A program made the position numbers and the translations under genes. 61,340 bases of DNA from NCBI GenBank assembly GCA_964628585.1, contig CAZVMH010000006.1:1-61340 (forward strand), given 5' to 3'. The notes under the pieces were generated by a model, which saw nothing but the letters and a program-made list of their open reading frames with translations, searched no databases and was not told where the DNA came from. Below are positions 6,871-35,219 of this stretch, one piece after another (position 1 is the stretch's first letter; each line of letters opens with the position of its first letter). Origin of the DNA: an uncultured Candidatus Saccharibacteria bacterium. Its GTDB lineage: Bacteria; Patescibacteriota; UBA1384; XYA2-FULL-43-10; 1-14-0-10-43-13.

Positions 6871-6948
6871 TTGATGCACTTTCATTCGAACACCTTTTGG
6901 CCTGGTTGGACCAACTTAGGCGTGCATATAACCGAACCGAACCGAATA

Positions 6949-7161: not shown

Positions 7162-7222
7162 ATGTGGATAACATAGCAAATTTTATCAACAATTTCCAGC
7201 TTAATTTATAAAAAGGAGGAGT

Positions 7223-8058: not shown

Positions 8059-8061
8059 ATT

Positions 8062-8805: not shown

Positions 8806-8831
8806 AATCGAATCTACCAGGTAGGGCTCGG

Positions 8832-9056
8832 TTAGTATTCTTTATCAACCAGACGTTCATACTGAGACATAGAAAAATATTTAGCGCACTCTTGATTATT
8901 ACATTTGGCAAATTGGCCGGATTCCCTTGCTCCCTGCAAGCTGGAAATGAATCCGGTTTTAGTAACGATCTCTCCGCATTTGTCACAAGACTTGTACTTC
9001 ATGGCAATAGTTATCTTAGCAGTAAAGCTAGAACCAATTCCAGAGGCATAATTCAA
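8832..9056 (-). CDS. Small putative zinc-finger protein
   Basis: CDKC and CNNQEC; overlaps the upstream gene stop; start uncertain. Confidence 0.55.
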   Translation of the reverse strand: MNYASGIGSSFTAKITIAMKYKSCDKCGEIVTKTGFISSLQGARESGQFAKCNNQECAKYFSMSQYERLVDKEY

Positions 9057-10051: not shown

Positions 10052-10060
10052 AGCAAATCT

Positions 10061-10819: not shown

Positions 10820-10821
10820 AT

Positions 10822-11376
10822 TTATTCTTTCTTTTTTACTTCTTCTCTCTTAAGGCATTTAATTTTATCGGTGTTGAGCCCGCTTCCAGGGTTTAACTCA
10901 AAGAAGTAATATGGATCGAGTACATATATATAAAGTATAAGTACAGCGGATCCAATGAACAGACCTTTGTGCCAGCCGAAGATTAGAAGGCCTAATGCAT
11001 AAGCAATCGCATAATCACGAACGCAGTTCTTTCCTTTCCCGCCAATTAGCCAAATTACATCACAAATCAAAGAAAGAGCCCCGCCTAGATAAAACAACGG
11101 CAAGTTATTGACCATGAGCCCCCAAACAAGAAGGATTGCTCCGATCAATTTAACGAGCCGTCTCTTGTTTAACCGTTGAAATAGAAATAAAAGATACTGC
11201 CATTTTGAAAGTGTTAATTCAAAGCTCTTGCCCGGATGTTTTATAGAACTTGAAACTCTAAGGATGTAATGGATAATCTTATCGTTCTTGTCGACATCAT
11301 GGCCAATGACAATAGGCCGATCCATAAGATTGACCATCTTGTTATTAAGCTGAATTTCTTTAAGCCTTTTCATCAT
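10822..11376 (-). CDS. Hypothetical membrane protein
   Basis: Several hydrophobic helices in the C-terminal half; 2-3 nt gaps to both neighbours. Confidence 0.65.
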   Translation of the reverse strand: MMKRLKEIQLNNKMVNLMDRPIVIGHDVDKNDKIIHYILRVSSSIKHPGKSFELTLSKWQYLLFLFQRLNKRRLVKLIGAILLVWGLMVNNLPLFYLGGALSLICDVIWLIGGKGKNCVRDYAIAYALGLLIFGWHKGLFIGSAVLILYIYVLDPYYFFELNPGSGLNTDKIKCLKREEVKKKE

Positions 11377-11379
11377 GTT

Positions 11380-14300
11380 TTATTCCTTGCCCACCCAATC
11401 TTTGCAGACTGTCTCGGCCTGCAATAGCACCAATTGAGTTGCACCTTCCTGCTTGTCTGGCGGATAGTTATATTTTTTTAACAATTTTTTAATATAGATC
11501 CTCATTTTGGCTTTGATATTATCACGTAATGTCCAATCCACTGTGGCATTCTGGCGCATTAGTTGGACTAGCTCTTTAGCAATTTTCTTCAAAGTCTCAT
11601 CGCCAATCTCAAGTTTTGCACTTTCGTTCTCAGCTAAAGCATCATAAAAAGCAATCTCATCATCAGCAAGACCCGTATCTTTGCCTCTTTCAACTTCTCC
11701 CTTTATTTCCTTGGCCAAATCAATCAAGTCAGCAATCACTTGAGCGGCTTCAATTGTTCGGTTTTGATAAGCTTTTATCGTCTTCTCCAGCATTTCAGCA
11801 AAAGAACGCCCCTTGATCATATTCTTTCGCATAAAAGATTTGATTTCATCATTTAAGAGTTTCTTCAAAATCTCAAGGGCTACATTCTTTCTGCCAAGTC
11901 CACGCACTTCTTCCAAAAATTCATCGGACAAGATCGCAACATCGGGCTTGTCCAGTCCGGCTGCCTTAAAAACATCAATAATTTCATCGGAAGCTATCGA
12001 ATCAGATACTATTTGTTTTATTGCTAAGTCGTAATCATCTTCGGTCGGCCCACTAACTGGAGAGATTTTTCTCACATATGCTTTCAACGCTTGAAAAAAG
12101 CCAACATGGTCTTTAATTACCAAAGCTTTTTCGTTCGGCACAGATAATGCGAAAGCTTTTGATAATTCCGTGACCGCCTTATTAAATCTTTTCTTGGCTT
12201 CTTCGTCGTCTGGATCAAGGGTTAAAACAAATTCCATGGCGTCACCGAAGAAGCTGGTTTTTGCTGAGGGGCTCATCTTAAAATATTTTTCATATCCGAA
12301 GTCATGAAACATTCCCTGCATTACTTCAAACTTCTCAAGCATTATTGAAACGGCCTGTTCCTGGTCAATTGCTGTATTTTCCTGATCATTTTGCGAATAC
12401 TCCGCCAATGCCTCTTTCAATTGTGGTGCAATGCCTAAATAGTCAACAATTAATCCGCCCGGCTTGTTTTTGTAGACTCTATTCACTCGAGCAATAGCCT
12501 GCATCAAACCGTGGCCTTTCATAGGCTTGTCGATATACATAGTGTGCAAGCTGGGCACATCAAAACCGGTCAACCACATATCGCGTACAATGACCAACTG
12601 CATTTCATCAGTTGGGTCTTTCATTCGATCAGCCATTTTGCCCAGTTCTTCTTTATTGCGGATATGCTTTTGAAAATTTAATGGATCAGAGGCGGAACCA
12701 GTCATCACTACCTTCAGAAAACCTTTTTTATCCGAATCATTGTGCCATTCTGGTTTGAGCTTGATAATTTCTTCATATAAATCAACTGCAATTCGCCGGC
12801 TCATCACAACAATCATACCCTTGCCATTCATCACATCAAGGCGATTGCCAAAATGTTCCACAATATCTTTGGCGATTTGCTTGATTCTCTTTTCACTTCC
12901 GACCATTGCCTCAAGTCTTGCCCATTTACTCTTTAATTTATTCACTAGTTCTGGTTCCTCATCCTCCATAATTTCATTGAAATCTGAATCAATCTTTGGC
13001 TTTTCTGATTCCAGTAATTGGATTTTAGCCAGTCTTGCTTCGTAGAAAATAGGAACTGTCGCTTTGTCGGCTACTGCTTGGGTAATGTCATAGACATCAA
13101 CATAGTCACCAAAGACTGCTTTAGTATTTTTGTCTGAGAGCTCAATAGGTGTTCCGGTAAAACCGATAAAAGAAGCATTGGGCAGTGATTCGCGCATGCT
13201 TTTAGCATAACCATCAATAAAATCGTACTGGCTACGATGGGCTTCATCGGCAATCACAACGACATTTCGTCGATCAGTCAGAAGCATTTTTTCTAAAAAT
13301 CCTTTTTGCAAAAATTTCTGAATGGTTGTAAATACGACTCCTCCGCTAGCAACTTTCAAAAGCTCGCGTAAATGACGACGGTTTTTTGCTTGAATTGGAG
13401 TTTGCTTTAATAAATCTTTGCATTTAGTGAATGTGTCAGCCAGCTGTTGATCCAAGTCATTTCTATCAGTCAAAACCACTAGCGTTGGATTATTTAAAGC
13501 GTCAATCAACTTGCCGGCGTAAAAAGCCATGGTCAAGCTTTTGCCCGATCCTTGAGTATGCCAAACAACTCCGGCTCGTCTGTCACCATCTTTTGATGTA
13601 GCCTCAATTGTGCTTTCCAGAGCCTTATTTGTTGCGAAGTATTGATGATAGGCTGGAATAATCTTAATAGTCCGTTCCTCACTATCCTTTTTTGTTGTAT
13701 TAAAAACAATAAAATTGCAAACGATATCAAGAAATCTCTTTTTATCAAATACCCCTTTTATTAAGGTTTCCAATTGCGGAATTAAATCAGATGCTAACTC
13801 ATTTCCTTCAATACTTCTCCAACGCATGAAACGATCTGTGTCAGAAGTAATAGAGCCAACTTTCGCCTCCGAGCCATCGGAAATTATCGCCAGCTCATTA
13901 AAGACAAACAATGAGGGAATATCTTGCTTATATGTTTGAATTTGATTAAAAGCTTCTTTGATCCCAACATTTTCATCTGCCAAATTTTTTAACTCAAAAA
14001 CTGCTAATGGCAAACCATTTACAAATATAACAACATCGGGACGGCGATTTGAATTCTCAACAACCGTAAACTGATTCAGCCAGACCCAATCATTGTTCTC
14101 AATAGTTTTTCGGTCAATCAACCAAACTTTATCGCCAGCAATCGAACCACCTTTTCTTTGATATTCAACATCTATCCCGTTGACTAAATATCTATGAAAA
14201 ATCTGATTATTGGAGACCAAAAGCGATGTGGCATTAGCCACATTTACTACTTTTTTGAAGGCTTCGTCCAAAGCATCGGCTGGAATATTAGGATTTATTC

Positions 14301-14466
14301 GCCCGATAGCATCTCGAAGCCGCCCTTCCAAAACGACTTGAGAAAAATCCTTCCGTTCCGGCTTTTCACTTTCAGGCTCAATGTCCGGTCCGTAGATGGT
14401 TGGATAGCCAAGTTCCTCAAACCATTCTCTTGTTGCTTCTTCTAGTGATGATTCGGTGTATTTCAT
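11380..14466 (-). CDS. hsdR: Type I restriction enzyme R subunit
   Basis: [18 protein letters not shown] nuclease motif, [37 protein letters not shown]; ATG at 14466 after AAGGAAG (track start 14505). Confidence 0.96.
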
Positions 14467-14476
14467 ATTACTTCCT

Positions 14477-16051
14477 TTATTCATATTTATCTGCCATGTC
14501 CTCAACAGTAAAATTTTCTATTTTAATCTTCTCATAAGGCCAAAAATACATGACGCTTTTTAAATCCTTTAAAAACTTAATAAAAAATTCGGGCCAGATT
14601 TCTTTCTGGCATTCATTGTAAAAGTCGTTCCTAGAAGCTAGCCCTAATTCCTGCAACGAGATAGCAAGATTTTTTTTCAGCTCATCGTTTGATTCTTCGT
14701 AAAAAAAATCTTTGACAATCTCTCTTCGAGTATTATTTCCATATTTACCCAAAAGCAGCGCGTAAAGAGATCTTATGGCCCAATGATTATTTCTGTCTTT
14801 AAAACGATCTACAAAGAGATCTAAACTTTCCTCATTAAAAGAATTGGCGGTTTCCAATAGACCTCTTAATACATGCAATTCCTGCCATTCATAGATTCTA
14901 TCATCTGCCTTGATGTAGTTTATAAAAAACTCCCTTACTTTGCTTTCTGGAAATTGAACCAAGAACTCGCAAAATATTTGTCCAAGATGAGGCTTATTGT
15001 GAAACTCTTCCATTATTTTGTTAACTATTGTACTGCAATCAATATCAATTCCGCTATTTTTAATTATTGAGAGTCTAAAAAGCGCAAATTTGATGTGCCT
15101 ATCTCCAAACCTGTTGTTTTTATCAAAAGCATTTACAAATAAATTTTTTAGAACAGGCACTATCGTTTTTATTTTAGTTTTATTCCTTGTATCAATAATA
15201 TTCTGTATGATGTTTAGAATTTCTCTATTGTCGTCGAACAACGACATTACTTCCTGTTGTTTTAATATTCTGGTTTTTTTAGCATTAATATTTAATTTAT
15301 ATTTCCGAAGTTCTTTAATTAATTTTATTAAGGATATTTTTGCTTCAATCTCTGTTTTGCAAAAGATGTGGATGTCGTCCATGTAACGAATATACCCCTC
15401 TATGTGCTCCATTGACTGGTCAACATTGTCTAAGTACAAATCGCCAAGGTAACTTGATGCTTGCGGCCCTTGAGGCAAACCAAAGTTTTTGAGCCTGCCA
15501 GCACTCCATTTATACAAGATCTTATTAAAGAGCAAATCTATCGAGGCTTTAAGCTTTTCATCATCGGGAATATGGTTATATATTTTCGAACGTAATTCTA
15601 TTAGGTTGATGTTCTCAAAATACCCAGAAATATCTGTCGTTACACAAAATACAAATCCTTTCTTGAAAAGAGTTGAAGAATCTTCATCGAATTGTTTCCA
15701 AGCATTAATTTTGCTCGATTTATTTTTAAAATTCCGGACACTGTAGCTTCTATTACTTAACTTGTCTATCGTATTTTTCATTATTTCATCAGTAATAAAT
15801 TGATAAATTACCCAATCCCGCACTTCGGGTCTGGCCATGGGCCTGATTGTAAAATTTTCTTTTGGCACATCTATTCTGTAGAGCTCCTTCGCTACATATT
15901 CACTGTCTGCGATCATCTTTATAATTTCCTCTGCATTACTGTCTTTCTTGGAATGCAGATAAGAAAATCTTAGTGGATCTGGAATAGGATTGTTCCCGCG
16001 TTGGTCTTCCTTTAATATCTTTAAAATGGATTCTTCTATATTTCTTTTCAC
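14477..16051 (-). CDS. Reverse transcriptase, UG/Abi (DRT)-like, with alpha-helical C-terminal region
   Basis: [45 protein letters not shown], then about 230 aa of helical repeat-like sequence. Confidence 0.88.
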
Positions 16052-17298
16052 TTCACCCTCAACTTTCCGCTCATTAATCTTGGTAAAAGAGAATCGCGGA
16101 TTTGCGATAAGATTTCGATTTCTTGCATATTGAAGACAACTTTTTTAACTAGTAAATTTGCAGTTATACCAAAAGACAATAAAGCATCGCTGCTTGGGAT
16201 ATTCAGCTCTATGTTTGCGGTTTCAATAGGACTTAGGTTTTGCTGTGCAGTACCCTTGGATATCGATATTAAATAGTTTTGAAATTCTCTATTTCTGAAC
16301 AAAAAATATGTAAACCCATAATTTCTTGTGTCCACAGGCGAAAGTTTTGCAACGCGCTGGTTTAGAAGATACTTATCGTGTCCGAAGACAAGGCAGCTCC
16401 TCCCTACATTTCCGGTTAATGATAAAATAATATCGCCAACTTTCAAGTGAGCATAGTCAGGCACTTTAGCAAGTATATTGGTTATTCTATTAGCACAGAT
16501 TGAACTGAAATTACCATCCTGGACATTTTTGATGGTAACCAGCCCGTAAATACCTTTGTCGTCAAAACAGGCGCTTGAGAACGAGAATCCGGAGAGAACT
16601 TTTATTAAGTCACCAAGCCGAGTATTGCCCGCAGTTAGAATCTCACCAAAAGTATTATTAAAATAAACTTGACCAAGGGATTCGAGGGTTTTAATCATTT
16701 TCTGATTCAATTCAATTTTTTCATCCAGTGTCCCTAATATCTTTGCAATTTGTAGCTGTTCCTGTATTGGTGGAAAAGCAAACTCCAATGATTTTATTTG
16801 ATCCGGGCTGATATTGGCTTGGTTGCCGCTTCCTTTTGCGCTAGATACCAACAAAAATTTAACTTCATCAGAAATTAAAAGATAATATAGGAAATCCTTA
16901 CATAATCTAGTTTTATCTTTTACCTCGAACTTACCGACCCTCTGGTTAAGTAGGGCAATTCGCTCTCTGTTTCTTAGCCGCCCTATCTTTCCTACGGCCG
17001 ACTGATACTGATTAAAATTAGACCCAGTTAAGGAAATTAAAATGTCATTATATCGAACCTCATAACCGCCGAGCTTTTCTGACAACATTTTATCTGCATA
17101 CTCTACTTCAGTTAAATCAACAACTGGCGGGATAATATTTTTTATTTTAATTATCGGCACTCCGCTACTGACAAATTCATTGCTCTTAAAAGCATAGCCC
17201 GATTTAATGTCAGCAATATCGCTTAACTTTAAAATTTCCCAATCTTCAGGAATTAGACCGAGTTCGGTTTGCTTAAATTGTGTTTGGCTATTTTGCAT
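16048..17298 (-). CDS. hsdS: Type I R-M specificity subunit
   Basis: Two TRDs separated by PPIQEQLQIAKILGTLDEKIELNQKMIKTLE; ends RDSLLPRLMSG. Confidence 0.93.
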   Translation of the reverse strand: MQNSQTQFKQTELGLIPEDWEILKLSDIADIKSGYAFKSNEFVSSGVPIIKIKNIIPPVVDLTEVEYADKMLSEKLGGYEVRYNDILISLTGSNFNQYQSAVGKIGRLRNRERIALLNQRVGKFEVKDKTRLCKDFLYYLLISDEVKFLLVSSAKGSGNQANISPDQIKSLEFAFPPIQEQLQIAKILGTLDEKIELNQKMIKTLESLGQVYFNNTFGEILTAGNTRLGDLIKVLSGFSFSSACFDDKGIYGLVTIKNVQDGNFSSICANRITNILAKVPDYAHLKVGDIILSLTGNVGRSCLVFGHDKYLLNQRVAKLSPVDTRNYGFTYFLFRNREFQNYLISISKGTAQQNLSPIETANIELNIPSSDALLSFGITANLLVKKVVFNMQEIEILSQIRDSLLPRLMSGKLRVK

Positions 17299-18046
17299 TG
17301 TTCCTCGTAATTAAATCATATGCCAGACTTGCCAACGAAATGTAATGAATGGCTAAATTTTTATCCATAGGACTTGCTGGAGTGTGAGCCTTTTCGTTTC
17401 TCAGAAATTGAATTGCCATATGTAAAAATTTTACGCCTTCAAAAAAATCCTTCTCGGGTTCATCGGAGGGTTCATGGCCAAAGATAATCTTGATGTTGCC
17501 AGCACAGAATGCATCGGTTGCTCTCTCCTGGCCGGTAATATCTTTTAGTCTTTTTCTAACAATTTTATATGATTCCTCAACTGCATGAAAATAGTTTTCA
17601 TTGGCTAAAAGTTCTTTAACGTGATCAAAAATATCAGCTTGTAGTAATATATTAATGTTTCCGTTTTCGAATGTAGCTTTTGACTTCCCCGCTGTTTTCC
17701 CAGTTGGATCATACAATCTATCTGCTATATCAAGTGCAGCAATTACCCTGTTAGGTGGGAAGTCTTCACTCGGCAAACCATCTATCAATGTTTGAGTCTT
17801 GATATATTCGATAAGGCCAACAATACTCTCAGAAACATCTCTATTTGTGGCTTTTAGCCAGAATCCTCGCATCCTGTTTGCTTTTGACCCAGAAGCATAA
17901 TTGTATTTTGGATTGTAAATGTCTATTTTGAGATCATCTCGAAAATATTCGCCGAAGGTCCTATCTGTAAAGTTCAAAACATAACCGCCACTCATTTGAA
18001 AAAGCTTTTCCAAGATTTGTTTTTCATTAGTTGTTAGATCAGCCAT
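17288..18046 (-). CDS. AbiJ-NTD-like domain fused to TIGR02391/Ymh-type HEPN-like domain
   Basis: N-terminal GGYVLNF...SGSKANRMRGFW; C-terminal YFHAVEES...RNEKAH (R-x4-H). Confidence 0.72.
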   Translation of the reverse strand: MADLTTNEKQILEKLFQMSGGYVLNFTDRTFGEYFRDDLKIDIYNPKYNYASGSKANRMRGFWLKATNRDVSESIVGLIEYIKTQTLIDGLPSEDFPPNRVIAALDIADRLYDPTGKTAGKSKATFENGNINILLQADIFDHVKELLANENYFHAVEESYKIVRKRLKDITGQERATDAFCAGNIKIIFGHEPSDEPEKDFFEGVKFLHMAIQFLRNEKAHTPASPMDKNLAIHYISLASLAYDLITRNNAK

Positions 18047-18160
18047 TTTTCTTCCTTATTTTGCATGATTTTACAAATATTTATCCACAGTTTTATTTAG
18101 TTTTATTTAATTTGATTTGTTTTTGGTTATTTTTGTGATATATTGTTATTGGAATTAATT

Positions 18161-18245
18161 CTGGTCCGAAATGTGGTGTTTATCACCTGCGTTCCCTTCG
18201 GGGATAGGATCGGAATAAATAAATTGGGACTGGGTAACCGGACCC
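18161..18245 (-). ncRNA. Putative structured ncRNA downstream of the DUF3800 gene
   Basis: Closing stem GGTCCGG/TCGGACC enclosing hairpins TCCC-CGAA-GGGA and GGTG-ATAAA-CACC; GC-rich island in AT-rich spacer, 3 nt after the stop codon. Confidence 0.65.
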
Positions 18246-18248
18246 TTT

Positions 18249-27438: not shown

Positions 27439-28725
27439 ATGAAAAGAATATTCTCAAAAATTATTCTTTTTTGTGGAATACTATTTCTCCCTGTTTCCGC
27501 TTATGCCGCTTCAAACCCCGAAGTTGAAAGCTTTACCCATGACGCCATGATCGCCCTGATCGGATTAGCTTCGGTTGCCGTTGTCTTCTTTCTGGTACGG
27601 GGAGCGTACCTGTATATAACCTCGAGTGGAGATCCGGCGGCACTGGACGAAGCAAAGCGGACTATCAGAAATGCCCTTATCGGATTGGTAATTGTTATAG
27701 GGGCAGCAGTTTTCAGCTCAATGCTTAACAGCGCAATGACAGAGCCTGCCAACAATGCTACCGGTACGGCTTTGACTTTAAGCGCAATCGAACCTGCTCC
27801 TCCTGATAATTCCCTTACCCAAGTTCTTCTGGATGCGATATCCGGTTTTCTGCAAAATATTATTCAGTCAGCCACCAAACCTCTCTTTGACGGAATCACC
27901 TGGTTTTTAACCTCTACGCCCCTTCTTTCCACCAATTCGGTTGTCTTTAATTTCTGGCTTGTTATGGTCGGTATCACCGATTCTCTCTTTGCTCTGGTAA
28001 TTGCCCTTCTGGGATTTAGGATAATGAGCACCTCAACTTTCGGGCTGGAAGAGATGACTTTGAAGGAAGTATGGCCTAAAATCGCCCTTGCCTTTGTCGG
28101 AGCCAATACCTCGATCTTTTTGATTGATTGGGTCATCCAGCTTTGCCAAGTCATGGTCAATGCAGTCCTTCATGCCACAGGCGGATTAGGACAGGCCTGG
28201 ATATTAAACGCTTTCGATCCGGCTGCCCTAGTTACCAATACGACAGCTCTCATAACTTTGATATTCATTATCATTTTTGTAATTCTGGCTGCCGTACTTC
28301 TGCTCTTCTATATCTCCCGTTTGATGATCCTGGCTTTCGGTGCCGTTATCTCGCCCTTTGTCTGCCTGCTTGCTCTAATTCCGAGCATGTCGGGCCTGGC
28401 CGCAAACCTAGCCAAAGCCTACTTTATTACTATTTTCACAGTCTTTATCCATGTTGTCATAATTCAGTTGGCCTCGGCTTTCTTAACCGCTCCCGGTCAA
28501 GTTGGAGCTAATCCGGTAGTTTCAATTTTAATCGGAGTCGCTCTTTTCTCAATCCTCTTAAAAAGTACTGCTACCGCCATTCAGCTTGCTCTTGCCAGCG
28601 GAACAACCAATTCAATTAAGAAATTCAGCGGACAGATTATGAATGTGATCAGTTCGGGAAATGTTTCCAATGTAAAGAATACGGTCAGCGCAAAAGAAGC
28701 GATTAAACAAGCGAGGGTCAAATGA
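27439..28725 (+). CDS. VirB6/TrbL-like channel protein with N-terminal pilin-like segment
   Basis: YITSSGDP pilin-like N-terminus followed by many TM helices. Confidence 0.72.
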   Translation: MKRIFSKIILFCGILFLPVSAYAASNPEVESFTHDAMIALIGLASVAVVFFLVRGAYLYITSSGDPAALDEAKRTIRNALIGLVIVIGAAVFSSMLNSAMTEPANNATGTALTLSAIEPAPPDNSLTQVLLDAISGFLQNIIQSATKPLFDGITWFLTSTPLLSTNSVVFNFWLVMVGITDSLFALVIALLGFRIMSTSTFGLEEMTLKEVWPKIALAFVGANTSIFLIDWVIQLCQVMVNAVLHATGGLGQAWILNAFDPAALVTNTTALITLIFIIIFVILAAVLLLFYISRLMILAFGAVISPFVCLLALIPSMSGLAANLAKAYFITIFTVFIHVVIIQLASAFLTAPGQVGANPVVSILIGVALFSILLKSTATAIQLALASGTTNSIKKFSGQIMNVISSGNVSNVKNTVSAKEAIKQARVK

Positions 28726-29225
28726 AAACTACCGTTGTACCCGCTCAAATCACAACCGTTGAAGATAGAATTGCCGGCAGTTTAACCCTGCCCCAGATTG
28801 TGCTGATGGTTATCTCCCTTGTGATCGGCGTAGTTATCTATGCCGGAATCCCGCCCAAAATGCACCTTAGCGCTTTCAAAATGACATTTATCGTGATCCA
28901 GTTCGCCGTGCTGGGAATATTAGCCATAAGGTTTAACGGCAAGATCGTGGCCGATTGGCTGATCATATTTCTGCGATATAAATCCAGACCCAATAAATAT
29001 GTTTTTACCAAGAATGATCTCATATATAGAGAAATCGTCGCTTCCAAAGAAGTTGCTAATAACAGGGAAAAACAAGTCAGCACAAACGAAAACAAAAAAT
29101 CCTCCAAGCCCTTAACCCTATTGGAGGAATTAAATCTAAAGAAGATTCTCGCCAGCGATTCACTATCTTTATCATTTAAGCCGTCGAAGAAAGGAGGAAT
29201 GGATGTTGCGCTCGAGCAAAAGTAA
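28722..29225 (+). CDS. PrgI/VirB3-like protein
   Basis: VPAQITTVEDRIAGSLT, two TM helices. Confidence 0.75.
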   Translation: MKTTVVPAQITTVEDRIAGSLTLPQIVLMVISLVIGVVIYAGIPPKMHLSAFKMTFIVIQFAVLGILAIRFNGKIVADWLIIFLRYKSRPNKYVFTKNDLIYREIVASKEVANNREKQVSTNENKKSSKPLTLLEELNLKKILASDSLSLSFKPSKKGGMDVALEQK

Positions 29226-29817
29226 AAATGGATCGGCCAGAACTCAAATCGGCATCAAAGAGGTCAGAGACGGCATCTTAATTCTGCCCGATAACTGCTA
29301 CCGCTCAATCCTCTCGACTTCATCCTTGAACTTCGAGCTTCAGAGTGAAGAAGAGCAGGATGTCGTGATCGATGCCTTTCAATCCTTTCTAAATAGCTTA
29401 ACAACATCGATTCAGATAATTGTCCGGGTTCGAGAGCTCGATATCGACCACTATCTTGAGGATTTCCAGGAGAAACTTAAAAATGAGAAGCAAAAGATTT
29501 ATGTAGATCAGCTGGCAAACTATAGCGACTTCATCCGAAAGCTGGTTTCGGGCAACAAGATTCTCTCCCGAAGATTCTATTTGGTAATTCCTCATGACAA
29601 CAAGGGCAAGGTTGATTTCCAAACTGCCAAGGAACAGCTCATGCTTGAGCAGGAGATTATCATTAAGGGATTAGAGAAGATCGGGATGACAGCAAGACAG
29701 CTTACATGCATAGAAATTCTAGACCTATTCTACAGCTATTACCGGCCGGAGCAGGCCAAGATTCAGCCTTTAGTTGAAGCATTAGTGAGGAAAACAAATG
29801 ATCAAAATTTTTTCTAA
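29203..29817 (+). CDS. T4SS-associated protein (VirB4 N-terminal/TraC-like)
   Basis: LNFELQSEEEQ...FLNSL...IQI...RRFYLVIP; located between prgI-like and virB4. Confidence 0.65.
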   Translation: MLRSSKSKNGSARTQIGIKEVRDGILILPDNCYRSILSTSSLNFELQSEEEQDVVIDAFQSFLNSLTTSIQIIVRVRELDIDHYLEDFQEKLKNEKQKIYVDQLANYSDFIRKLVSGNKILSRRFYLVIPHDNKGKVDFQTAKEQLMLEQEIIIKGLEKIGMTARQLTCIEILDLFYSYYRPEQAKIQPLVEALVRKTNDQNFF

Positions 29818-31594
29818 ACCAAGACCAAACTCAAGATGGGCCAAAAGAAAAAGGGTAGAGAAGGAAAAGAAGGACGCCCTCATTTTTCATGTCGGCGACC
29901 AGGATCAGCTCGATATGATCACTTATTCGGGGCTTCAGGAATTTACCGATCACCTGGAAATTGACGGGCGATATGTTAAGACCCTCTTCATCTCCGGCTA
30001 CCCATATACTGCATCAAGCGGCTGGCTAAACCACCTCATAAACTTCAACTACAACGTCGATATTTCCTATCATATTGAACCGGTAGATGCGATACTTGCC
30101 CTTCCCAAACTAAACCGCAAAATAACCGAGCTAATCTCTACAAAAAGAGCTATGGAGAGGGCAGGCAAGATCATCGGTTCGGAGCTAACAGATCCATTGG
30201 ATTCGGCAACAGAGCTTCGGGACAAGATTCAGCGGGGGCAGGAGAACCTATTCCAAGTTTCCCTATATATAAATCTCTCGGCCGACACTCTGGCTGAATT
30301 AAATAAGACGATCAAACTCCTAGACACCGTCTTGGCAACCCGCCTCTTCTATACCAAACCGGCTACTTTTCAGCAGATCGAGGGCCTACAATCGGTATTG
30401 CCAAGATGCAACAACCAACTGGCTCAAAAAAGAAATTTGGACAGCTCCTCAGCCGCTCTGACCTTTCCGTTTATCTCATCTGAACTGGTTCATGAATCGG
30501 GAGTACTCTACGGAATCAACCGGTCAAATAGCTCGCTTGTAATACTGGATCGATTCTCGCTTCCGAATGCAAACAGTATATTATTCGCCCAATCGGGAGC
30601 AGGAAAAAGCTACACCGCCAAAGTGGAAATTCTTCGCCACTTAATGCAGGGAACCAAGGTAATCGTGATCGATCCGGAGAGAGAATACAAAAGACTGGCC
30701 CAGTCAGTCGGCGGAACAAATATCAAACTCTCTGTTCATTCCAAGGAGAAGATTAATCCCTTTGATCTTGAAGTCAACGCTTTCTCCGAGGAAGAGGGCT
30801 TTGCTGATCATATTCAATCACTGACTGAAATTATCTCTTTGGTGGCAGAGGGGCTTTCTGCCGAAGAGAAATCAGTCGTTGATAAAGCCATAATCACAAC
30901 ATACCAAAAAGCCGGCTGGACAAAGAAGAACTCAACCAAGAAGAAAAGTCGAACATACCCTAGACTATTTGACCTCTATGTTACTCTGCGGGGAATGAAA
31001 CAGATTAAGCTTTGCCGAAGGCTTGAGAAATATACGACGGGCTCGCTTTCACAGGTTTTCGATACCCAAACGAATATTGAACTTGATAATCGGCTGGTAG
31101 TATTTGATACCAAGGATCTGCCCGAATCGCTTCGCCAGATCATGCACCTAGTTATCGCTCAATTCGTTCAAAATCAAGTCAAATCAGACCCTTGCAAAAG
31201 AATACTGGTTATTGATGAAGCCTGGCTTCTTTTAGAGCATGAGGAAAGCGCTAGATTTGTAGCCGGATTAGTAAGAAGGGCTCGAAAGTACTATTTGGGA
31301 GTTTCCATTATCTCCCAGCAAGCCAATGACTTTCTCGGCAATGTTTACGGACGGGCAATAGCATCACAAAGTGCTCTGCGAATACTGATGAGACAGGACA
31401 CCACTACTATTAAAGGAGTCGCTTCGGAGTTCCACTTAAGCGAATATGAGCAAAGATTTCTTTTAACCTGCGAACAGGGAGAGGCATTGATCATTGCCGA
31501 TCAGCACCATGTCGCAGTCAAAGTAACGGCCTCCGAAACCGAGCATCCTCTGATTACAACCGATCCGACCGATATTATGAAAAAAGAAACATGA
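29798..31594 (+). CDS. VirB4-like ATPase
   Basis: AQSGAGKS, VIDPEREY, INPFDL, VIDEAW, RKY...SQQ. Confidence 0.9.
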   Translation: MIKIFSKPRPNSRWAKRKRVEKEKKDALIFHVGDQDQLDMITYSGLQEFTDHLEIDGRYVKTLFISGYPYTASSGWLNHLINFNYNVDISYHIEPVDAILALPKLNRKITELISTKRAMERAGKIIGSELTDPLDSATELRDKIQRGQENLFQVSLYINLSADTLAELNKTIKLLDTVLATRLFYTKPATFQQIEGLQSVLPRCNNQLAQKRNLDSSSAALTFPFISSELVHESGVLYGINRSNSSLVILDRFSLPNANSILFAQSGAGKSYTAKVEILRHLMQGTKVIVIDPEREYKRLAQSVGGTNIKLSVHSKEKINPFDLEVNAFSEEEGFADHIQSLTEIISLVAEGLSAEEKSVVDKAIITTYQKAGWTKKNSTKKKSRTYPRLFDLYVTLRGMKQIKLCRRLEKYTTGSLSQVFDTQTNIELDNRLVVFDTKDLPESLRQIMHLVIAQFVQNQVKSDPCKRILVIDEAWLLLEHEESARFVAGLVRRARKYYLGVSIISQQANDFLGNVYGRAIASQSALRILMRQDTTTIKGVASEFHLSEYEQRFLLTCEQGEALIIADQHHVAVKVTASETEHPLITTDPTDIMKKET

Positions 31595-32205
31595 ACCCGC
31601 AAACTCTTAGATTGATCGCCCTCTCCTTTTCAATGAAGAAGGAGATTAAACTCATATTCTTTACTGTGGGAGTCCTCTGCCTCCTGCCGGTTTTTGCCGT
31701 CATTATCTTAACCCAAGCGGGCTTTAATTTTGTTTCCGATACTCTGGCCTCAATCAATCCCACAACTTTGCTGGTAGAGATCCATGACCCTGCTGACGGC
31801 TCAATCATTGAAGTCATCACCGAACCGAGGATCTGGCCTACTGTTGGCAATGTTACATTGGAGTTTTCCCAAAGATCGCCCTATCAGCTCTTTCATACCG
31901 GTATTGATATTGCAGGGCCTACAGGAGAGCCGGTCGGGGCTTTTATGAAAGGAACGGTCATCTATGCCGATGAAACGATCACAGGCTTCGGCAAACATGT
32001 CAAAATAGATCATGGCCATCATATAGTTACTATCTATGGTCACTTGGATTCTATTGCCGTACAAGAAGGCCAGGAGGTTGATATAGGTACAGTCGTAGGC
32101 ACCAGAGGAGATACCGGCTGGTCAACAGGGCCTCATCTTCACTTTCAAACAAATGTATTCGGAATACCGGTCAATCCGAGGGTGTTTTTGACGGGGAGTC
32201 CATAA
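31591..32205 (+). CDS. M23 family peptidase
   Basis: HTGID (HxxxD), YGHL, GPHLHF (HxH); N-terminal TM. Confidence 0.88.
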   Translation: MNPQTLRLIALSFSMKKEIKLIFFTVGVLCLLPVFAVIILTQAGFNFVSDTLASINPTTLLVEIHDPADGSIIEVITEPRIWPTVGNVTLEFSQRSPYQLFHTGIDIAGPTGEPVGAFMKGTVIYADETITGFGKHVKIDHGHHIVTIYGHLDSIAVQEGQEVDIGTVVGTRGDTGWSTGPHLHFQTNVFGIPVNPRVFLTGSP

Positions 32206-32303
32206 AAACAAAAAGCCAGAGAAATCAATTATTTAATTGCTCTGGCCTTGCCCTGCTTGTCCTGGTTGGGACTACAGGGCTCGGTTTGGGAAAGACGGTC
32301 CCG

Positions 32304-33032
32304 CTATTGCCGTTCAGCTACCCATCCGCAGTGCTCACAGCGACCTTCGCGAACGATGTCCTTGATGTGATCGGCATGGTAACCAGCTCCAAGGACGGGG
32401 CAGTCAGATCCGGAAATCATGACGTACTTGTCCTCTCCAGGGACAAGAACTGTCATCTCCTCAAGATGGTCGTGAAACGATTGACCTTCGAGGATGGCGT
32501 ATCGGATCTTTCCCGGGGGAAGATCGGTTCTCCTGAAGACCCTTTCGATCTTGTCGAACAGATCTCCCAGGTCGTCGTACCAGTTGTTCTTCCTCATCAT
32601 CATCATTATCTGCTCAGCGAAGAAGTAGACGATATACCGAGCCGCATCCTCGTACGTCATCGGGCGGCGGTACCGGCTACTTCCTTTCTCTCTGAGCATC
32701 ACTCGCGTGAAGCAGAACACCACCTCAACGTGGAGGTCGGAGTCCTCTCTGGTACGCAGGTCGGACGAGGGAATGTTGAGTGTCAGCGATCTGAAAGCAT
32801 CCGCAAGGAAGCTCTTACCATCCGGCACTTCCCCACCCAGGTCGTTGGCGAGACAGTTGCTGTCTATTGTCTCTATGTCTGTGACTCCGATTCTCGCGAA
32901 GAACTCTCGGTTCAGCTCCGTAGCAAAGTCGCAGAGGATTTCTGCTTTTCTTCTGACCGCTGCTTCTTCTCCTGGGCTGGGAACGCTTGCGAGCATGAGC
33001 TGAACTGCCTGATTCACGTCTTTCGTGTTCAC
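32304..33032 (-). CDS. GC-rich hypothetical protein
   Basis: 242 aa, AAGGAAT upstream, C-terminal CEHC; composition visibly differs from flanks. Confidence 0.62.
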   Translation of the reverse strand: MNTKDVNQAVQLMLASVPSPGEEAAVRRKAEILCDFATELNREFFARIGVTDIETIDSNCLANDLGGEVPDGKSFLADAFRSLTLNIPSSDLRTREDSDLHVEVVFCFTRVMLREKGSSRYRRPMTYEDAARYIVYFFAEQIMMMMRKNNWYDDLGDLFDKIERVFRRTDLPPGKIRYAILEGQSFHDHLEEMTVLVPGEDKYVMISGSDCPVLGAGYHADHIKDIVREGRCEHCGWVAERQ

Positions 33033-33219
33033 GTCTTTATTCCTTGCCCTTTTCCCCCTTGGGCGCGAGGATATCAGATGGTTCGTATTATACCATGCAT
33101 TCGATTAAAAAGCAATACCCTAGCAAAAATTATATGAACAATAAGACCTCGGTTTCTCATAACAGAATAGGTGTTCGGTTTAACCTCTATAGGACTAAAT
33201 AATTTATCGAACACTTTGC

Positions 33220-33264
33220 TTGACAGGTGTTCATATATGGATATATACTATCCATATATGAACA
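33220..33264 (+). promoter_or_regulatory. Promoter overlapped by a 16-bp perfect inverted repeat
   Basis: TTGACA(33220)-18-TATACT; TGTTCATATATGGATA-N5-TATCCATATATGAACA at 33228-33264. Confidence 0.65.
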
Positions 33265-33278
33265 TAACGGAGGGATAG

Positions 33279-33602
33279 ATGGGGCCTTGTCAAACAAAAT
33301 TGTTTCAACCGAATGAAGCGGTTTCTGTAAACGAGAAAATTACTTCGGAGTTTGCCTCTTCCCTTATCACAGAACATTCTAAGCCAAATATTACTCTGGA
33401 CTCAATTTTCCCTACAGAACAGGAAGAGAACAAACTTCAAAGAGCTCGCCGAATTTTGGGCGAGATTGTAACCGACATACCCGACGATATTCTTGAGATT
33501 CATTTAGTCAAATTTCAATACTTAGTAGATTGCTGGCTTGATAGTTTTGAAAAACAGGCCTTCAACGGCAAAACATTAGATCAATTATTAAGAGAGGGGT
33601 GA
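33279..33602 (+). CDS. Hypothetical protein co-transcribed with the recombinase
   Basis: GGAGG RBS; 3-nt gap to the recombinase gene. Confidence 0.7.
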   Translation: MGPCQTKLFQPNEAVSVNEKITSEFASSLITEHSKPNITLDSIFPTEQEENKLQRARRILGEIVTDIPDDILEIHLVKFQYLVDCWLDSFEKQAFNGKTLDQLLREG

Positions 33603-33605
33603 AAA

Positions 33606-35219
33606 ATGGATCAATCCAATTCAAACCAAAAAAAGGGCGCTGTCGTTTATCTTCGCGTCTCGACAGAAGAACAGGTTGATAACTATTCCTTGGAAACACA
33701 GGAAGACATTTGTAACAAAGAGGCGCAAAAAAGAAAGCTCATAATTCGTCATACTTTTCGGGAGGAAGGAAAGTCGGCTAAAACCATAACCGGCAGACCG
33801 GTATTGATTGAAATGTTGGAGTTTTGCCGAAAACACAAAAAAGACATCGATGCCATCATTATCTATCGCTTGGATCGCATCTCGCGTCAAACAGCAGACT
33901 ATTTAGCAATCAGAAAGAAGCTGGCCGAGTGCGATATCAAATTAATCTCTGCAACCGAACCGACAGGCAACAGTCCGACGGAAAAATTCGTCGAGACAAT
34001 GCTTGCTGGCTTTGCTCAGATGGACAACGATGTCAGGAGTGAAAGAACAAAAAACGGCATGAAAGCAAGATTCTTGGCCGGATTAAACAGCGGCTATGTC
34101 CCGATGGGTTATTTAAATAATAACGGTTATGCCATAAAAGATCCGGAATTTTTCGATATTTTAAGTTATGGCTGGGATTTGATGGCGACAGGCGAGAAAA
34201 CCCTGAACGAAATGGTTAAGATTTTAAGCGAAAAAGGATTGCGGGGAGGAACCAAGGCCAAACCAACCATTCTAAGGGCTCAACAGCTTAATAGGATATT
34301 CCGAAACAAATTCTATGCCGGGAAAGTCATCTCAAAGAAGTATCACAAAGAAATTCAAGGCCAGCATCCGCCAATGGTAACTGAGGAAAAGTTTTACCAA
34401 GTCCAGGCGGCATTAGACGGAAGGAACACAAGAATTGCGATGCCGCTTGCCAGAAGAAACCGGGACAATCCGGAATTTCCACACCGCCGCTTTATTAAAT
34501 GCGGATGTTGCGGAGGTTCTTTCACCGGAGCCAAGAGTAAAGGAAAACGTCTTCATTATGGCTATTACTTTTGCCAGAAACGATGCAAGGGGGCAAATGC
34601 TTCCGTTGTAAAGATAGAAGAAAAAACTGAAAACCTTCTGGGGAAGATTGCGATCAAAGAAAAAACCGCAGAGCTCTTAAATGCTTATCTTAGAAGAAGA
34701 TACTATGAGAGGATCTCTACGCTGCAAAAAAGGCGGGATAGAGCCGATCAGGACCTTCGTGAGCTATATGAGTTTCGCCAGGCATTAATCCAGAAAAATA
34801 TCTCGGGAGTGTATTCCGATGAGGTCTTCAAAGAACAAAATAAGATTGTTGAGAAGAAAATACAAGCCGCAGTAATGGCCAAAGAGGATGAGTTGATTGA
34901 TAAATATAACTTAAAGGATATAACCCTGTTTATAAAAAATAAGCTCGGCAATCTTTTGCAAACATACAAAGATTCCGAGTTACAAGACAAGCGCACGCTC
35001 ATGTGTTCGATATTTCCCTCTGGACTGGTCTGGGACCAAAACGACTATTCACACACCGAAATTAGTCAATACTACAGCGCAATAACCGATATTGAAAAAC
35101 CTAGCATCCGGTTTGGTACCCCAGGCAGGATTCGAACCTGCGACCTAATGTTTAGAAAACATTTGCTCTATCCACTGAGCTACTGGGGCATTTTTTATGT
35201 CAAAACCCATTTCTTTTAA
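33606..35219 (+). CDS. Large serine recombinase (integrase)
   Basis: VYLRVSTEEQ catalytic Ser, YRLDRISR, recombinase domain, CGCCG/YYFC zinc ribbon, coiled coil; last 32 aa are encoded antisense to the tRNA. Confidence 0.93.
   Translation: MDQSNSNQKKGAVVYLRVSTEEQVDNYSLETQEDICNKEAQKRKLIIRHTFREEGKSAKTITGRPVLIEMLEFCRKHKKDIDAIIIYRLDRISRQTADYLAIRKKLAECDIKLISATEPTGNSPTEKFVETMLAGFAQMDNDVRSERTKNGMKARFLAGLNSGYVPMGYLNNNGYAIKDPEFFDILSYGWDLMATGEKTLNEMVKILSEKGLRGGTKAKPTILRAQQLNRIFRNKFYAGKVISKKYHKEIQGQHPPMVTEEKFYQVQAALDGRNTRIAMPLARRNRDNPEFPHRRFIKCGCCGGSFTGAKSKGKRLHYGYYFCQKRCKGANASVVKIEEKTENLLGKIAIKEKTAELLNAYLRRRYYERISTLQKRRDRADQDLRELYEFRQALIQKNISGVYSDEVFKEQNKIVEKKIQAAVMAKEDELIDKYNLKDITLFIKNKLGNLLQTYKDSELQDKRTLMCSIFPSGLVWDQNDYSHTEISQYYSAITDIEKPSIRFGTPGRIRTCDLMFRKHLLYPLSYWGIFYVKTHFF
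35114..35189 (-). tRNA. tRNA-Arg(TCT), integration target
   Basis: GCCCCAG/CTGGGGT acceptor stem, AATGT-TTTCTAA-ACATT anticodon arm, CCA end. Confidence 0.95.

What the first reader, a model, noticed from the sequence alone, without database searches (positions are those of the whole stretch)
33606..35219. Serine recombinase whose att site lies in its own 3' end, so integration swaps its C-terminus
Seen: the integrated ORF reads ...SIRFGT|PGRIRTCDLMFRKHLLYPLSYWGIFYVKTHFF through the antisense tRNA. Joining the two TGGTACCC repeats as in an excised circle keeps the frame and gives ...SIRFGT|LDALSFEHLLAWLDQLRRAYNRTEPNIKEYQET-stop (6870-6971). That is a 33-aa amphipathic-looking tail of almost the same length, stored 28 kb away at the other end. 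The reconstructed attP has the inverted repeat GCATC-cggtt-TGGTACCC-tt-GATGC. Known: tyrosine integrases of Mx8 and SSV1 are altered by attP lying inside int. Inference: a built-in directionality or stability switch in a serine integrase.
Basis: partly seen in the sequence, partly recalled or inferred. Interest (0 to 1): 0.8.

Follow-up and report, generated by a model that had tools for sequence, protein, structure and literature searches.

The report
tRNA-targeting serine integrase with swappable tail
A 28-kb conjugative element in a candidate-phyla-radiation bacterium sits in a tRNA gene, put there by a serine integrase whose own gene spans the insertion site, so the enzyme has a conserved helical tail only when the element is free; the same holds for a large integrase family that I could not find described.

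Summary
ORF 33606-35219 is a large serine integrase. Its last 33 codons read antisense through tRNA-Arg(TCT). The 8-bp core TGGTACCC recurs at 6863-6870. Joining the cores keeps the frame and adds a 33-aa tail (6870-6968).

An independent metagenome contig, L001 (85% nt identity), carries exactly that joined arrangement. The 28.2 kb between the cores is a conjugative element with defence cargo.

The trait is family-wide. In 69 of 80 related Patescibacteria loci the integrase 3' end overlaps an antisense tRNA gene, covering 24 tRNA species. More than 100 element left ends carry the stored tail LDALSFEHLLxWLxxLxxAF.

The tail's first ~10 codons double as the attP P' arm. There the T-loop box ATTCGAAC lies 5 bp further out than in the tRNA, as the serine-integrase att model predicts. 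Later codons are conserved only at protein level. AlphaFold predicts a helix for this tail and disorder for the tRNA-derived one.

The proposed directionality or stability switch is plausible but untested. One paper already noted att sites inside serine integrase genes of streptococcal ICEs, so I rate this a new variant of a known kind. No empty site was found.

The parts
33606..35219 (+). Large serine integrase gene, integrated form (537 aa). Residues 1-505 are element-encoded; the last ~32 residues come from tRNA antisense and host flank.
   Evidence: Resolvase and Recombinase; Zn-ribbon below cut-off; PHROG integrase; R17/S19 and four Cys invariant. AF2 gives residues 501-537 pLDDT 32-41 with no secondary structure.
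35114..35189 (-). tRNA-Arg(TCT) gene, the attB target. Its 3'-terminal GGGTACCA is the core. The gene stays intact after integration.
   Evidence: ARAGORN; 3' end CCTGGGGTACCA.
35114..35121 (+). attR core TGGTACCC, the antisense of acceptor end + discriminator + CCA.
   Evidence: One search shows the core shared by attL and attR in relatives is TGGT[AG]C plus 0-3 nt.
6863..6870 (+). attL core TGGTACCC; left boundary of the element.
   Evidence: The boundary is confirmed by L001 colinearity.
6870..6971 (+). Stored alternative 3' end of the integrase gene: 33 codons (LDALSFEHLLAWLDQLRRAYNRTEPNIKEYQET) plus stop. It has no start codon of its own and joins the integrase frame only in the attP configuration.
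   Evidence: Natural joined homologue P0001/L001. Conserved at >100 left ends. Predicted helix in P0001 residues 511-526.
6884..6891 (+). ATTCGAAC in the P' arm (codons S-F-E-H), at +21..+28 from the T of TGG. Proposed zinc-ribbon-domain motif of attP.
   Evidence: best register +5 relative to the tRNA copy.
35130..35137 (+). ATTCGAAC of the tRNA T-loop/T-stem (antisense), at +16..+23. Proposed zinc-ribbon-domain motif of attB, 5 bp closer to the core.
   Evidence: The model is from Rutherford et al. 2013 (PMC3783163).
33279..33602 (+). 107-aa ORF directly upstream of the integrase gene; its stop lies 3 nt before the integrase ATG. Conserved partner of this integrase family; candidate accessory or directionality factor.
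   Evidence: present in 78 of 80 sequences with an upstream ORF, with motif ..EFQYLLDSWLDEFEKQIF... No Pfam or PHROG hit. Weak similarity to the tail.
6949..7179 (-). HTH_3 (Cro/CI-type) regulator at the element's left end, convergent with the stored tail and overlapping it slightly.
   Evidence: The same gene follows the tail in L001 and in L084.
20600..32205 (+). Conjugation module: TrwB-like coupling protein, Replic_Relax relaxase, T4SS pilin, TrbL-like, PrgI, VirB4/TraG-like ATPase, M23 peptidase.
7223..20402 (.). Defence cargo: PLD-like nuclease, PD-(D/E)XK nuclease, type I R-M (hsdR 11380-14505, hsdS 16048-17298, hsdM 18879-20402), defence reverse transcriptase (14477-16051), DUF3800 and others.
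6863..35121 (+). Whole integrated element, about 28.26 kb, attL core to attR core.
   Evidence: GC is raised to 0.43-0.52 over about 19-33 kb.

Best explanation
The window holds a 28-kb integrative conjugative element of a Patescibacteria (CPR) bacterium, inserted at the 3' end of tRNA-Arg(TCT) by its own large serine integrase.

The element's attP overlaps the last codons of the integrase gene. The P arm is the coding sequence ...DIEKPSIRF. The crossover lies in TGGT, the antisense of the tRNA's discriminator plus CCA. The P' arm is the first ~10 codons of a further 33-codon tail.

In the free, circular form the gene therefore encodes a full integrase. It ends in a conserved amphipathic helix, LDxLSFEHLLxWLxxLxxA[F/Y]. 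Integration moves that tail 28 kb away. The integrase ORF then runs on into the antisense of the tRNA and ends in an arbitrary, probably disordered peptide.

Recognition follows the standard large-serine-integrase scheme. An inner motif (GA at +10/+11) sits at the same place in the P' arm and in the tRNA. The T-loop box TTCGAAC sits 5 bp further out in attP than in the tRNA. The invariant T-loop and encoded CCA would explain how the family has spread over 24 tRNA species.

Shown: the anatomy, the boundaries, the family-wide pattern, the conservation of the tail and the att geometry.

Inferred: the tail can be expressed, and so selected, only while the element is excised. It should therefore serve integration (attP x attB), or the enzyme's stability at that stage. 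Excision must be carried out by the tail-less form, probably with help from the conserved 107-aa protein encoded just upstream.
For: - Integrase identity: Pfam, PHROG and Foldseek hits to the SPbeta, Bxb1, phiC31 and LI integrase structures.
- Junctions: the 8-bp core is at both ends. L001 runs colinearly from window 33159-35121 straight into window ~6870-7428, followed by HTH and PLD-like genes.
- Element content: conjugation genes and defence cargo.
- Family pattern: nearly all of the 120 best homologues end in ...FG[STAG] followed by a tRNA-antisense peptide. In 69 of 80 genome loci the integrase 3' end lies over an antisense tRNA, 24 species in all. Seven of the other 11 are cut by a contig end.
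- Reading frame: the tRNA 3'-terminal base is a third codon position in 55 of 69 loci.
- Stored tails at left ends: about 24 in genome loci. A further >=120 metagenome stretches matched; 87 were classified, of which 79 are attL-like.
- Level of selection: tail codon 13 uses all six Leu codons, codon 16 is L/I/M and codon 20 is F/Y. Codons 1, 4 and 9 are almost always CTT.
- att geometry: the outer block fits best at a +5 shift (3.55 against <=1.13). The inner block fits best at 0. The dyad centre is at +2.0. This matches Rutherford et al. 2013.
- Structure prediction: the tail is a helix in P0001 (pLDDT 65-76). The tRNA-derived tail is disordered (pLDDT 32-41).
- Upstream ORF: conserved in 78 of the 80 sequences in which an upstream ORF was found.
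Against: - No empty attB for this host was found, and no circle junction for this exact element.
- L001 is only 3.2 kb. It could be the internal junction of a tandem array and not a free circle.
- Other joined int-tail proteins (P0121, P0123, L127) are integrase remnants, not full genes.
- Many tails stop soon after the W-L. Stop codons appear from codon 18 on.
- pN/pS for codons 13-20 is only about 0.63, with saturated synonymous sites. Protein-level selection on the distal tail is therefore moderate, and the metagenome set was selected with a pattern that fixes codons 1-12.
- I had no model coordinates, so I could not see whether the helix docks on the enzyme.
- The crossover dinucleotide (GG or GT) is not resolved.
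- No functional difference between the two protein forms has been shown.
Confidence: 0.75

Rival explanations
1. The tail swap is a functionally neutral by-product. attP happens to overlap the end of the integrase gene. The enzyme's working part ends near ...FG. The apparent conservation of the tail is mostly the DNA-level constraint of the P' arm, and both protein forms behave alike.
For: - Codons 1-10 of the tail are conserved at third positions too: CTT in 98/125, 125/125 and 98/125 at the three Leu codons. That is what a protein-binding DNA site predicts.
- Distal tails vary in length and many stop 4-10 codons after W.
- Integrated-form tails are arbitrary, 6-76 codons long, so the enzyme tolerates any C-terminus at least for excision.
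- The linker before the helix has low confidence.
Against: - Positions 13, 16 and 20 of the tail keep hydrophobic or aromatic residues while using all synonymous codons.
- These positions lie 36-60 bp from the crossover. That is outside the ~25-bp half-site reach described for these enzymes.
- The hydrophobic spacing fits an amphipathic helix, and AF2 predicts one.
- Distant relatives (29-40% identity) also carry helical W-containing tails where they do not end in a tRNA.
Confidence: 0.25
2. Self-contained directionality switch by helix competition. The 107-aa protein co-transcribed with the integrase is the recombination directionality factor. Its C-terminal helix (FQxLLDxWLDxFE) and the integrase tail (FEHLLxWLDxL) bind the same surface of the integrase. 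With the tail present (free element) the factor is excluded and the enzyme integrates. Once the tail is lost on integration, the factor binds and permits attL x attR excision.
For: - The small ORF is conserved and abuts the integrase gene in 78 of 80 sequences.
- Profile-profile comparison of tails against the ORF's C-terminus gives 14 aligned columns, probability 49%, E 1.7e-4 for the single comparison.
- The ORF has no known family.
- Large serine integrases generally need a separate factor for excision (PMC3783163; abstracts listed).
Against: - The similarity is short, needs a gap and is of low complexity (amphipathic helix with WLD).
- No complex model or binding data were available.
- A factor made from the same operon in both states is unusual for known systems.
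- The ORF could equally be a regulator or an integration cofactor.
Confidence: 0.15
3. The integrated, tail-less integrase is inactive and the element is locked in (domesticated island). Mobility would then need a full-length integrase supplied in trans.
For: - For Mx8 the integrase form made after integration is reported to be less active (PMC4701971, citing Magrini et al. 1999).
- attL-like junctions vastly outnumber attP-like ones in metagenome contigs: 79 against at most one, and that one (L127) is a remnant.
Against: - The integrase ORFs are intact in most of the 80 loci (only L080 looks disrupted). Catalytic residues are invariant in the 49 aligned homologues.
- The family occupies 24 different tRNA species in many CPR lineages, which requires repeated mobility.
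- A joined attP-type contig exists.
- The conjugation genes of this element are intact.
Confidence: 0.07
4. The two 8-bp repeats are a coincidence and the element's boundaries lie elsewhere.
For: TGGTACCC occurs four times in the window. One in a hundred shuffles reaches that count.
Against: - L001 joins exactly these two points.
- The same core-plus-tail structure recurs at more than 100 left ends.
Confidence: 0.01

Closest known systems
Canonical large serine integrases (phiC31, Bxb1, A118/LI, SPbeta SprA)
   Same: - Domain order: resolvase, recombinase, zinc ribbon with coiled coil.
- Short att sites with a small common core.
- The inner motif sits at the same position in attP and attB, and the outer motif is displaced by 5 bp.
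   Different: - At most 27% identical to any phage or plasmid integrase in the collections searched.
[quoted passage not shown]
- attP lies inside the integrase ORF.
- There is about 100 aa after the coiled coil, plus a swappable terminal helix.
- A conserved small ORF is fused in an operon upstream.
Myxophage Mx8 IntP/IntX (attP inside int; integration alters the C-terminus)
   Same: - attP lies within the integrase gene.
- Integration replaces the C-terminal sequence (PMC4383910; PMC4701971).
- From my own knowledge, not checked here: Mx8 also targets a tRNA gene.
   Different: - Mx8 Int is a tyrosine recombinase.
- There 112 residues are replaced by 13, and the altered form is reported as less active.
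- Here a serine integrase loses about 30 residues, and no activity data exist.
SSV1-type fusellovirus integrases
   Same: The integrase gene extends across attP (PMC4383910). From my own knowledge, not checked here: the target is a tRNA gene.
   Different: Tyrosine recombinase, archaeal. From my own knowledge: the gene is split into two large parts rather than losing a short tail.
Serine integrases of streptococcal ICEs inserted in rumA (Ambroset et al. 2016)
   Same: attR lies inside a serine integrase gene, so the excised element encodes an integrase of different length and C-terminus. This was noted in silico, with a suggested functional difference.
   Different: - The target there is a protein-coding gene, in Firmicutes.
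- That paper gives no analysis of tail conservation or of att geometry.
- Relatedness to this family was not tested. The best streptococcal phage integrases are about 26-27% identical.
tRNA-targeting genomic islands and ICEs with tyrosine integrases (P4-like, Islander-type islands)
   Same: Integration at the 3' end of a tRNA gene, with the element supplying the displaced 3' nucleotides so the tRNA stays intact. The integrase gene lies next to the tRNA.
   Different: - The enzyme family differs. The Islander paper states that serine integrases were not known to target tRNA genes.
- The duplicated segment here is only 6-9 bp, which fits a serine-recombinase crossover.

Membership tests
Large serine recombinases / serine integrases | N-terminal resolvase-type catalytic domain with the catalytic serine | tested here: met
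   PF00239 E 3.9e-32. Y15, R17, V18 and S19 are invariant in 49 homologues.
Large serine recombinases / serine integrases | Recombinase domain followed by a zinc-ribbon domain with an embedded coiled coil | tested here: met
   PF07508 is above cut-off. PF13408 scores 22.3 bits, below its 25.3 cut-off, in the window protein but is recorded for most homologues. C299, C302, C323 and C327 are invariant. AF2 shows long helices at 352-426. Foldseek top hits are 9dxh, 9iu2, 9tep and 4kis.
Large serine recombinases / serine integrases | Short att sites sharing only a small core around a 2-bp crossover | tested here: inconclusive
   The attL/attR shared core is 6-9 bp, TGGT[AG]C.... The dyad centre falls on G at +2. 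The dinucleotide itself (GG or GT) cannot be fixed from sequence.
Large serine recombinases / serine integrases | Outer (zinc-ribbon) motif 5 bp closer to the centre in attB than in attP; inner motif unchanged | tested here: met
   Consensus from 110 attL and 57 attR sequences. TCGAAC is at +18 in the tRNA and +23 in P'. GA is at +10/+11 in both. The best shift is +5 (outer) and 0 (inner). Model from PMC3783163.
Large serine recombinases / serine integrases | Excision depends on a separate recombination directionality factor | not testable with these tools
   The candidate is the conserved 107-aa upstream ORF. No functional or complex data.
Integrase genes that span attP (Mx8 / SSV type) | attP core inside the integrase coding sequence, so integration changes the protein's C-terminus | tested here: met
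Integrase genes that span attP (Mx8 / SSV type) | Tyrosine recombinase chemistry | tested here: not met
   The enzyme is a serine recombinase. It works like this group but is not a member.
Integrase genes that span attP (Mx8 / SSV type) | The two protein forms differ in activity | not testable with these tools
   Indirect evidence only: the tail is conserved, and AF2 predicts a helix for it against disorder for the tRNA-derived tail.
Integrative conjugative element (T4SS type) | Integrase, relaxase, coupling protein, VirB4-type ATPase and mating-pore genes between att junctions | tested here: met
   junctions.
Integrative conjugative element (T4SS type) | Demonstrated excision to a circle and an empty site in related genomes | tested here: inconclusive
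   L001 shows the joined attP arrangement for an element 85% identical at nucleotide level. It could be a tandem junction. No empty site was found.

The most novel reading that the evidence does not exclude
The integrase tail and the co-transcribed 107-aa protein form a built-in directionality switch that needs no outside signal. The cis tail helix, present only on the free element, occupies the surface that the small protein (acting as directionality factor) would bind, which forces integration. Loss of the tail on integration hands that surface to the small protein and licenses excision. The site choice (T-loop box plus CCA) would make this a family of integrases that can be retargeted between tRNA genes by changing a few codons of their own C-terminus.
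Probability: 0.15. Interest if true: 0.88.

Novelty: new variant of a known kind. Interest (0 to 1): 0.7.

Why it matters
**For the integrase field.** The standing view is that tRNA genes are targets of tyrosine integrases. The Islander paper stated that serine integrases were not known to use them. Here a large clade of serine integrases (810 cluster representatives below E 1e-30) appears to specialise on tRNA 3' ends. It seems to read the universal T-loop box and the encoded CCA. In its CPR branch this spans at least 24 tRNA species.

**For the directionality question.** These enzymes store part of their own gene at the other end of the element. That gives a natural pair of enzyme forms, one per recombination direction. 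Control of directionality in serine integrases is under active structural study, and this pair makes it directly testable.

**For practical use.** These enzymes are candidates for genetic tools in CPR bacteria, which lack them. They also show how attP and integrase specificity co-evolve when one sequence encodes both.

Tried and rejected
1. **Empty attB via the flanking gene.** I looked for it through the 126-aa gene at 6467-6847. It has 690 homologues, but its relatives have different synteny with no tRNA-Arg upstream. L086 is the same organism in the occupied state.
2. **Degenerate junction pattern.** One 36-nt pattern covering attB, attP, attL and attR of this element found nothing in the JGI metagenome contigs.
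3. **tRNA-Ala site.** I tried L082 (intact tRNA-Ala) and L084 (left end of a related element with a tRNA-Ala core) as an empty/occupied pair. Their flanks do not align, so I dropped the claim.
4. **Profile search for joined forms.** A profile of C-terminus plus tail returned only short fragments. P0121, P0123 and L127 proved to be integrase remnants.
5. **Viral contigs.** The P' arm pattern is absent from them, so the elements are not catalogued as viruses.
6. **Direct repeats of 10 nt or more.** Searching within 10 kb upstream of related integrases found few ends, because the cores are only 6-9 bp. A peptide and HMM search for the tail worked instead.
GCATC...GATGC as a whole is not conserved (L001 has GAGGG). 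Only TC/GA is.
8. **Helix docking.** Model coordinates are not exposed, so I could not check whether the tail helix docks on the enzyme.
9. **Literature.** Searches for a described CPR or tRNA-targeting serine integrase family found none. That library omits most subscription journals.
Full report
**1. What is in the window**

The ORF at 33606-35219 (+, 537 aa) is a large serine recombinase.
- Pfam finds the Resolvase domain (E 3.9e-32) and the Recombinase domain. The recombinase zinc ribbon scores just under its cut-off.
- PHROGs calls it an integrase.
- An AlphaFold model of its closest relative matches the solved SPbeta, Bxb1, phiC31 and Listeria integrase structures best.

ARAGORN places tRNA-Arg(TCT) at 35114-35189 on the opposite strand. 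After ...SIRFGT the ORF reads PGRIRTCDLMFRKHLLYPLSYWG..., which is the tRNA read backwards.

TGGTACCC lies at 35114-35121 and at 6863-6870. On the tRNA strand this is GGGTACCA: the end of the acceptor stem, the discriminator and the CCA. T35114 is a third codon position. Joining the two copies therefore keeps the frame and appends LDALSFEHLLAWLDQLRRAYNRTEPNIKEYQET (6870-6968, stop at 6969-6971).

**2. Is it more than chance?**

The 8-mer alone is not convincing. It occurs four times in the window against 0.74 expected, and one other copy is simply the end of tRNA-Arg(CCT). The decisive evidence comes from outside the window.

The best database homologue, P0001 (93% identical, 531 aa), does not end in a tRNA-derived peptide. 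It ends in ...SISLGT|LEGLSFEHLMSWLNQLMCAFNQDDDG.

Its contig is L001 (ENA ERZ28593234, 3222 bp). L001 aligns with window 33159-35121 at 85% and then runs directly into sequence matching window 7009-7089 and 7316-7428. The same HTH and PLD-like genes follow. L001 therefore carries the predicted attP arrangement of a sister element, joined exactly at TGGTACCC. This fixes the boundaries of the window's element at 6863 and 35121.

**3. What the element is**

Between the cores lie two gene sets.
- Conjugation genes: a TrwB-type coupling protein, a Replic_Relax relaxase, T4SS pilin, TrbL-like and PrgI proteins, a VirB4/TraG-type ATPase and an M23 peptidase.
- Defence cargo: type I restriction-modification, a defence-type reverse transcriptase (RT_UG21), PLD-like and PD-(D/E)XK nucleases.

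It is an integrative conjugative element. The related genome loci are nearly all labelled Patescibacteria (Saccharibacteria, Berkelbacteria, Microgenomates groups, CPR2). A few are labelled Gammaproteobacteria or Bacillota.

**4. The trait is family-wide**

- Nearly all of the 120 best homologues (57-93% identity) end in ...[FLI]G[STAG] followed by peptides such as GIRTRDL, GNRTPV or RIRTYDL. These are tRNA T-arms read antisense in one frame.
- In 80 loci from GTDB genomes, the integrase 3' end overlaps an opposite-strand tRNA in 69. These cover 24 tRNA species for 11 amino acids. Seven of the other 11 loci are cut by the contig end within 52 nt.
- The tRNA's terminal base is a third codon position in 55 of 69 loci. 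The tRNA-derived tails run 6-76 codons, median 20.
- More distant representatives (29-36% identity) also end in tRNA-antisense peptides, but in another frame (RGFEPLLPG, TGIEPVLPA), or in W-containing helical tails. The habit therefore seems to belong to a much larger clade. These more distant cases were read by eye from C-termini only.
- No member is closer than 27% to any integrase in the phage or plasmid collections.

**5. The stored tail is conserved**

A motif and HMM search of all six frames found the tail at about 24 places in the genome loci. All are on the integrase strand, nearly all 1.5-11 kb upstream of it, and most are preceded by the same in-frame G-x codons of the core.

A DNA pattern for the P' arm found at least 120 further stretches in JGI metagenome contigs. 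Of 87 classified, 79 are left junctions. The consensus is L-[DEN]-A-L-[SCP]-F-[EQ]-H-L-L-x-W-L-[DNS]-x-[LIM]-x-x-[ASV]-[FY].

Two kinds of constraint are superposed.
- Codons 1-10 are conserved even at silent positions: CTT at Leu1 in 98 of 125 and at Leu9 in 98 of 125. This is what a DNA site predicts.
- Codon 13 uses all six leucine codons about equally. Codon 16 is L/I/M. Codon 20 is F/Y. These lie 36-60 bp from the crossover and were not fixed by my search pattern, so the conservation here is at protein level.
- The signal is moderate. pN/pS is about 0.63 with saturated silent sites, and stop codons appear from codon 18.

**6. How the sites are read**

Consensus sequences from 110 left and 57 right junctions give the following, numbering the T of TGG as 0.
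- The tRNA arm has GA at +10/+11 and TCGAAC (the T-loop and T-stem) at +18.
- The element's P' arm has GA at +10/+11 and TCGAAC at +23.
- In the window, both arms carry the identical octamer ATTCGAAC, at 35130-35137 and at 6884-6891.

A register scan confirms a best fit of 0 for the inner block and +5 for the outer block. The dyad centre falls on +2.

This matches the rule established for the Listeria integrase. There the zinc-ribbon motif lies 5 bp nearer the centre in attB than in attP, while the recombinase-domain motif stays put (PMC3783163).

So the codons S-F-E-H of the tail are at the same time the attP copy of the tRNA T-loop box. All ten tRNA genes of the window encode CCA. The crossover lies in TGGT; GG and GT cannot be told apart from sequence.

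**7. Structure predictions**

In P0001 the tail forms a helix at residues 511-526 (pLDDT 65-76). It follows a low-confidence linker. In the window's integrated form, residues 501-537 have pLDDT 32-41 and no secondary structure. I could not inspect contacts.

**8. A conserved partner**

A small ORF (33279-33602, 107 aa) ends 3 nt before the integrase start codon. An upstream ORF was found in 80 of the sequences examined, and 78 of those carry the strongly conserved C-terminal half ...LSDEELExYLTEFQYLLDSWLDEFEKQIFNGKTLKQLL. It has no Pfam or PHROG family.

Its FQxLLDxWLD helix resembles the tail's FEHLLxWLD. A profile comparison gives 49% probability and E 1.7e-4 over 14 columns. This is suggestive, no more.

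**9. Mechanism**

Shown: the anatomy, the boundaries, the family pattern, the conservation and the site geometry.

Inferred: the tail has no start codon of its own and is joined to the integrase only in the attP arrangement. It can therefore be selected only while the element is free, for example in a new host after transfer. The only reaction then available is integration.

Its protein-level conservation thus argues that it helps integration, or stabilises the enzyme at that stage. Excision must be done by forms carrying arbitrary tails, so it cannot depend on the tail. Whether this amounts to a directionality switch is untested, as is any role of the 107-aa protein as the directionality factor.

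**10. Comparison with what is known**

- Integrase genes spanning attP are known for the tyrosine recombinases of Mx8 and SSV.
- Ambroset et al. 2016 noted that streptococcal ICEs in rumA have attR inside a serine integrase gene, with a changed C-terminus.
- The Islander paper stated that serine integrases were not known to target tRNA genes.
- I found no description of this CPR family, its tRNA specificity, the conserved stored tail or the T-loop-based att geometry. The searched library omits much of the subscription literature.

I therefore class it as a new variant of a known kind.

**11. Caveats**

- No empty site and no circle junction were found for this exact element.
- L001 could be the inner junction of a tandem array and not a circle. 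Either way it shows the P-core-P' arrangement exists in nature.
- The metagenome tail set was selected with a pattern fixing codons 1-12. Only later codons of that set are unbiased.

Noticed in passing
window 33279-33602 (+); same position in L002-L081: A 107-aa ORF abutting the integrase start is conserved in 78 of 80 sequences (…EFQYLLDSWLDEFEKQIFNGKTLKQLL). It has no Pfam or PHROG family. Its WLD helix weakly resembles the integrase tail.
   Followed up: partly
P0307-P0423, relatives at 29-36% identity: Many distant serine integrases also end in tRNA-antisense peptides, but in a different reading frame (RGFEPLLPG, TGIEPVLPA, RGIEPRFPG). Others end in W-containing helical tails. The att-in-int, tRNA-targeting habit may span a far larger clade than the CPR family.
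   Followed up: partly
L048 (999 and 2348), L059 (1952 and 5170); metagenome loci L089, L115, L117, L131, L142, L147, L152: Two stored tails lie upstream of one integrase, or on one short contig. This suggests tandem arrays or left-end remnants piling up at the same tRNA. In a tandem array the inner junction would restore a helical tail to the upstream element's integrase.
   Followed up: partly
window 42219-42226 (end of tRNA-Arg(cct), 42151-42226): The last 10 nt of tRNA-Arg(CCT) (AGGGGTACCA) equal those of the occupied tRNA-Arg(TCT), including the full 8-bp core. This is a possible secondary attachment site.
   Followed up: no
window 14477-16051 (-): A reverse transcriptase gene sits between hsdR and hsdS of the type I R-M system. 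Its best PADLOC match is RT_UG21 (defence-associated RT, E 2e-78). The left 13 kb of the element is a defence island.
   Followed up: partly
window 25759-26859 (+): A 366-aa repeat-rich secreted protein in a 52% GC patch ends in VPEPTSLLALAGLL...RKKVK. From memory this looks like a PEP-CTERM sorting signal, which would be unexpected in a CPR element. It has no Pfam hit.
   Followed up: no
L084 2422-2540 (-): A related element's left end carries a divergent tail (…QFIEFVLEWEPILRYIY) next to a TGGTGGAC core, which matches a tRNA-Ala 3' end. The HTH and PLD-like genes are in the same order as in the window.
   Followed up: partly
L045 3578-5203: One family member on a 90-kb contig has no tRNA after the integrase. 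It ends instead in a 46-aa non-tRNA tail (…SLELFIILSENLELVKEF…). This may be a different target or a tandem junction.
   Followed up: no
window 35145-35885 (-): A 246-aa ORF without family hits ends inside the 5' half of tRNA-Arg(TCT); its last residues read the tRNA in sense. It may be a real gene overlapping the tRNA or an over-extended ORF.
   Followed up: no
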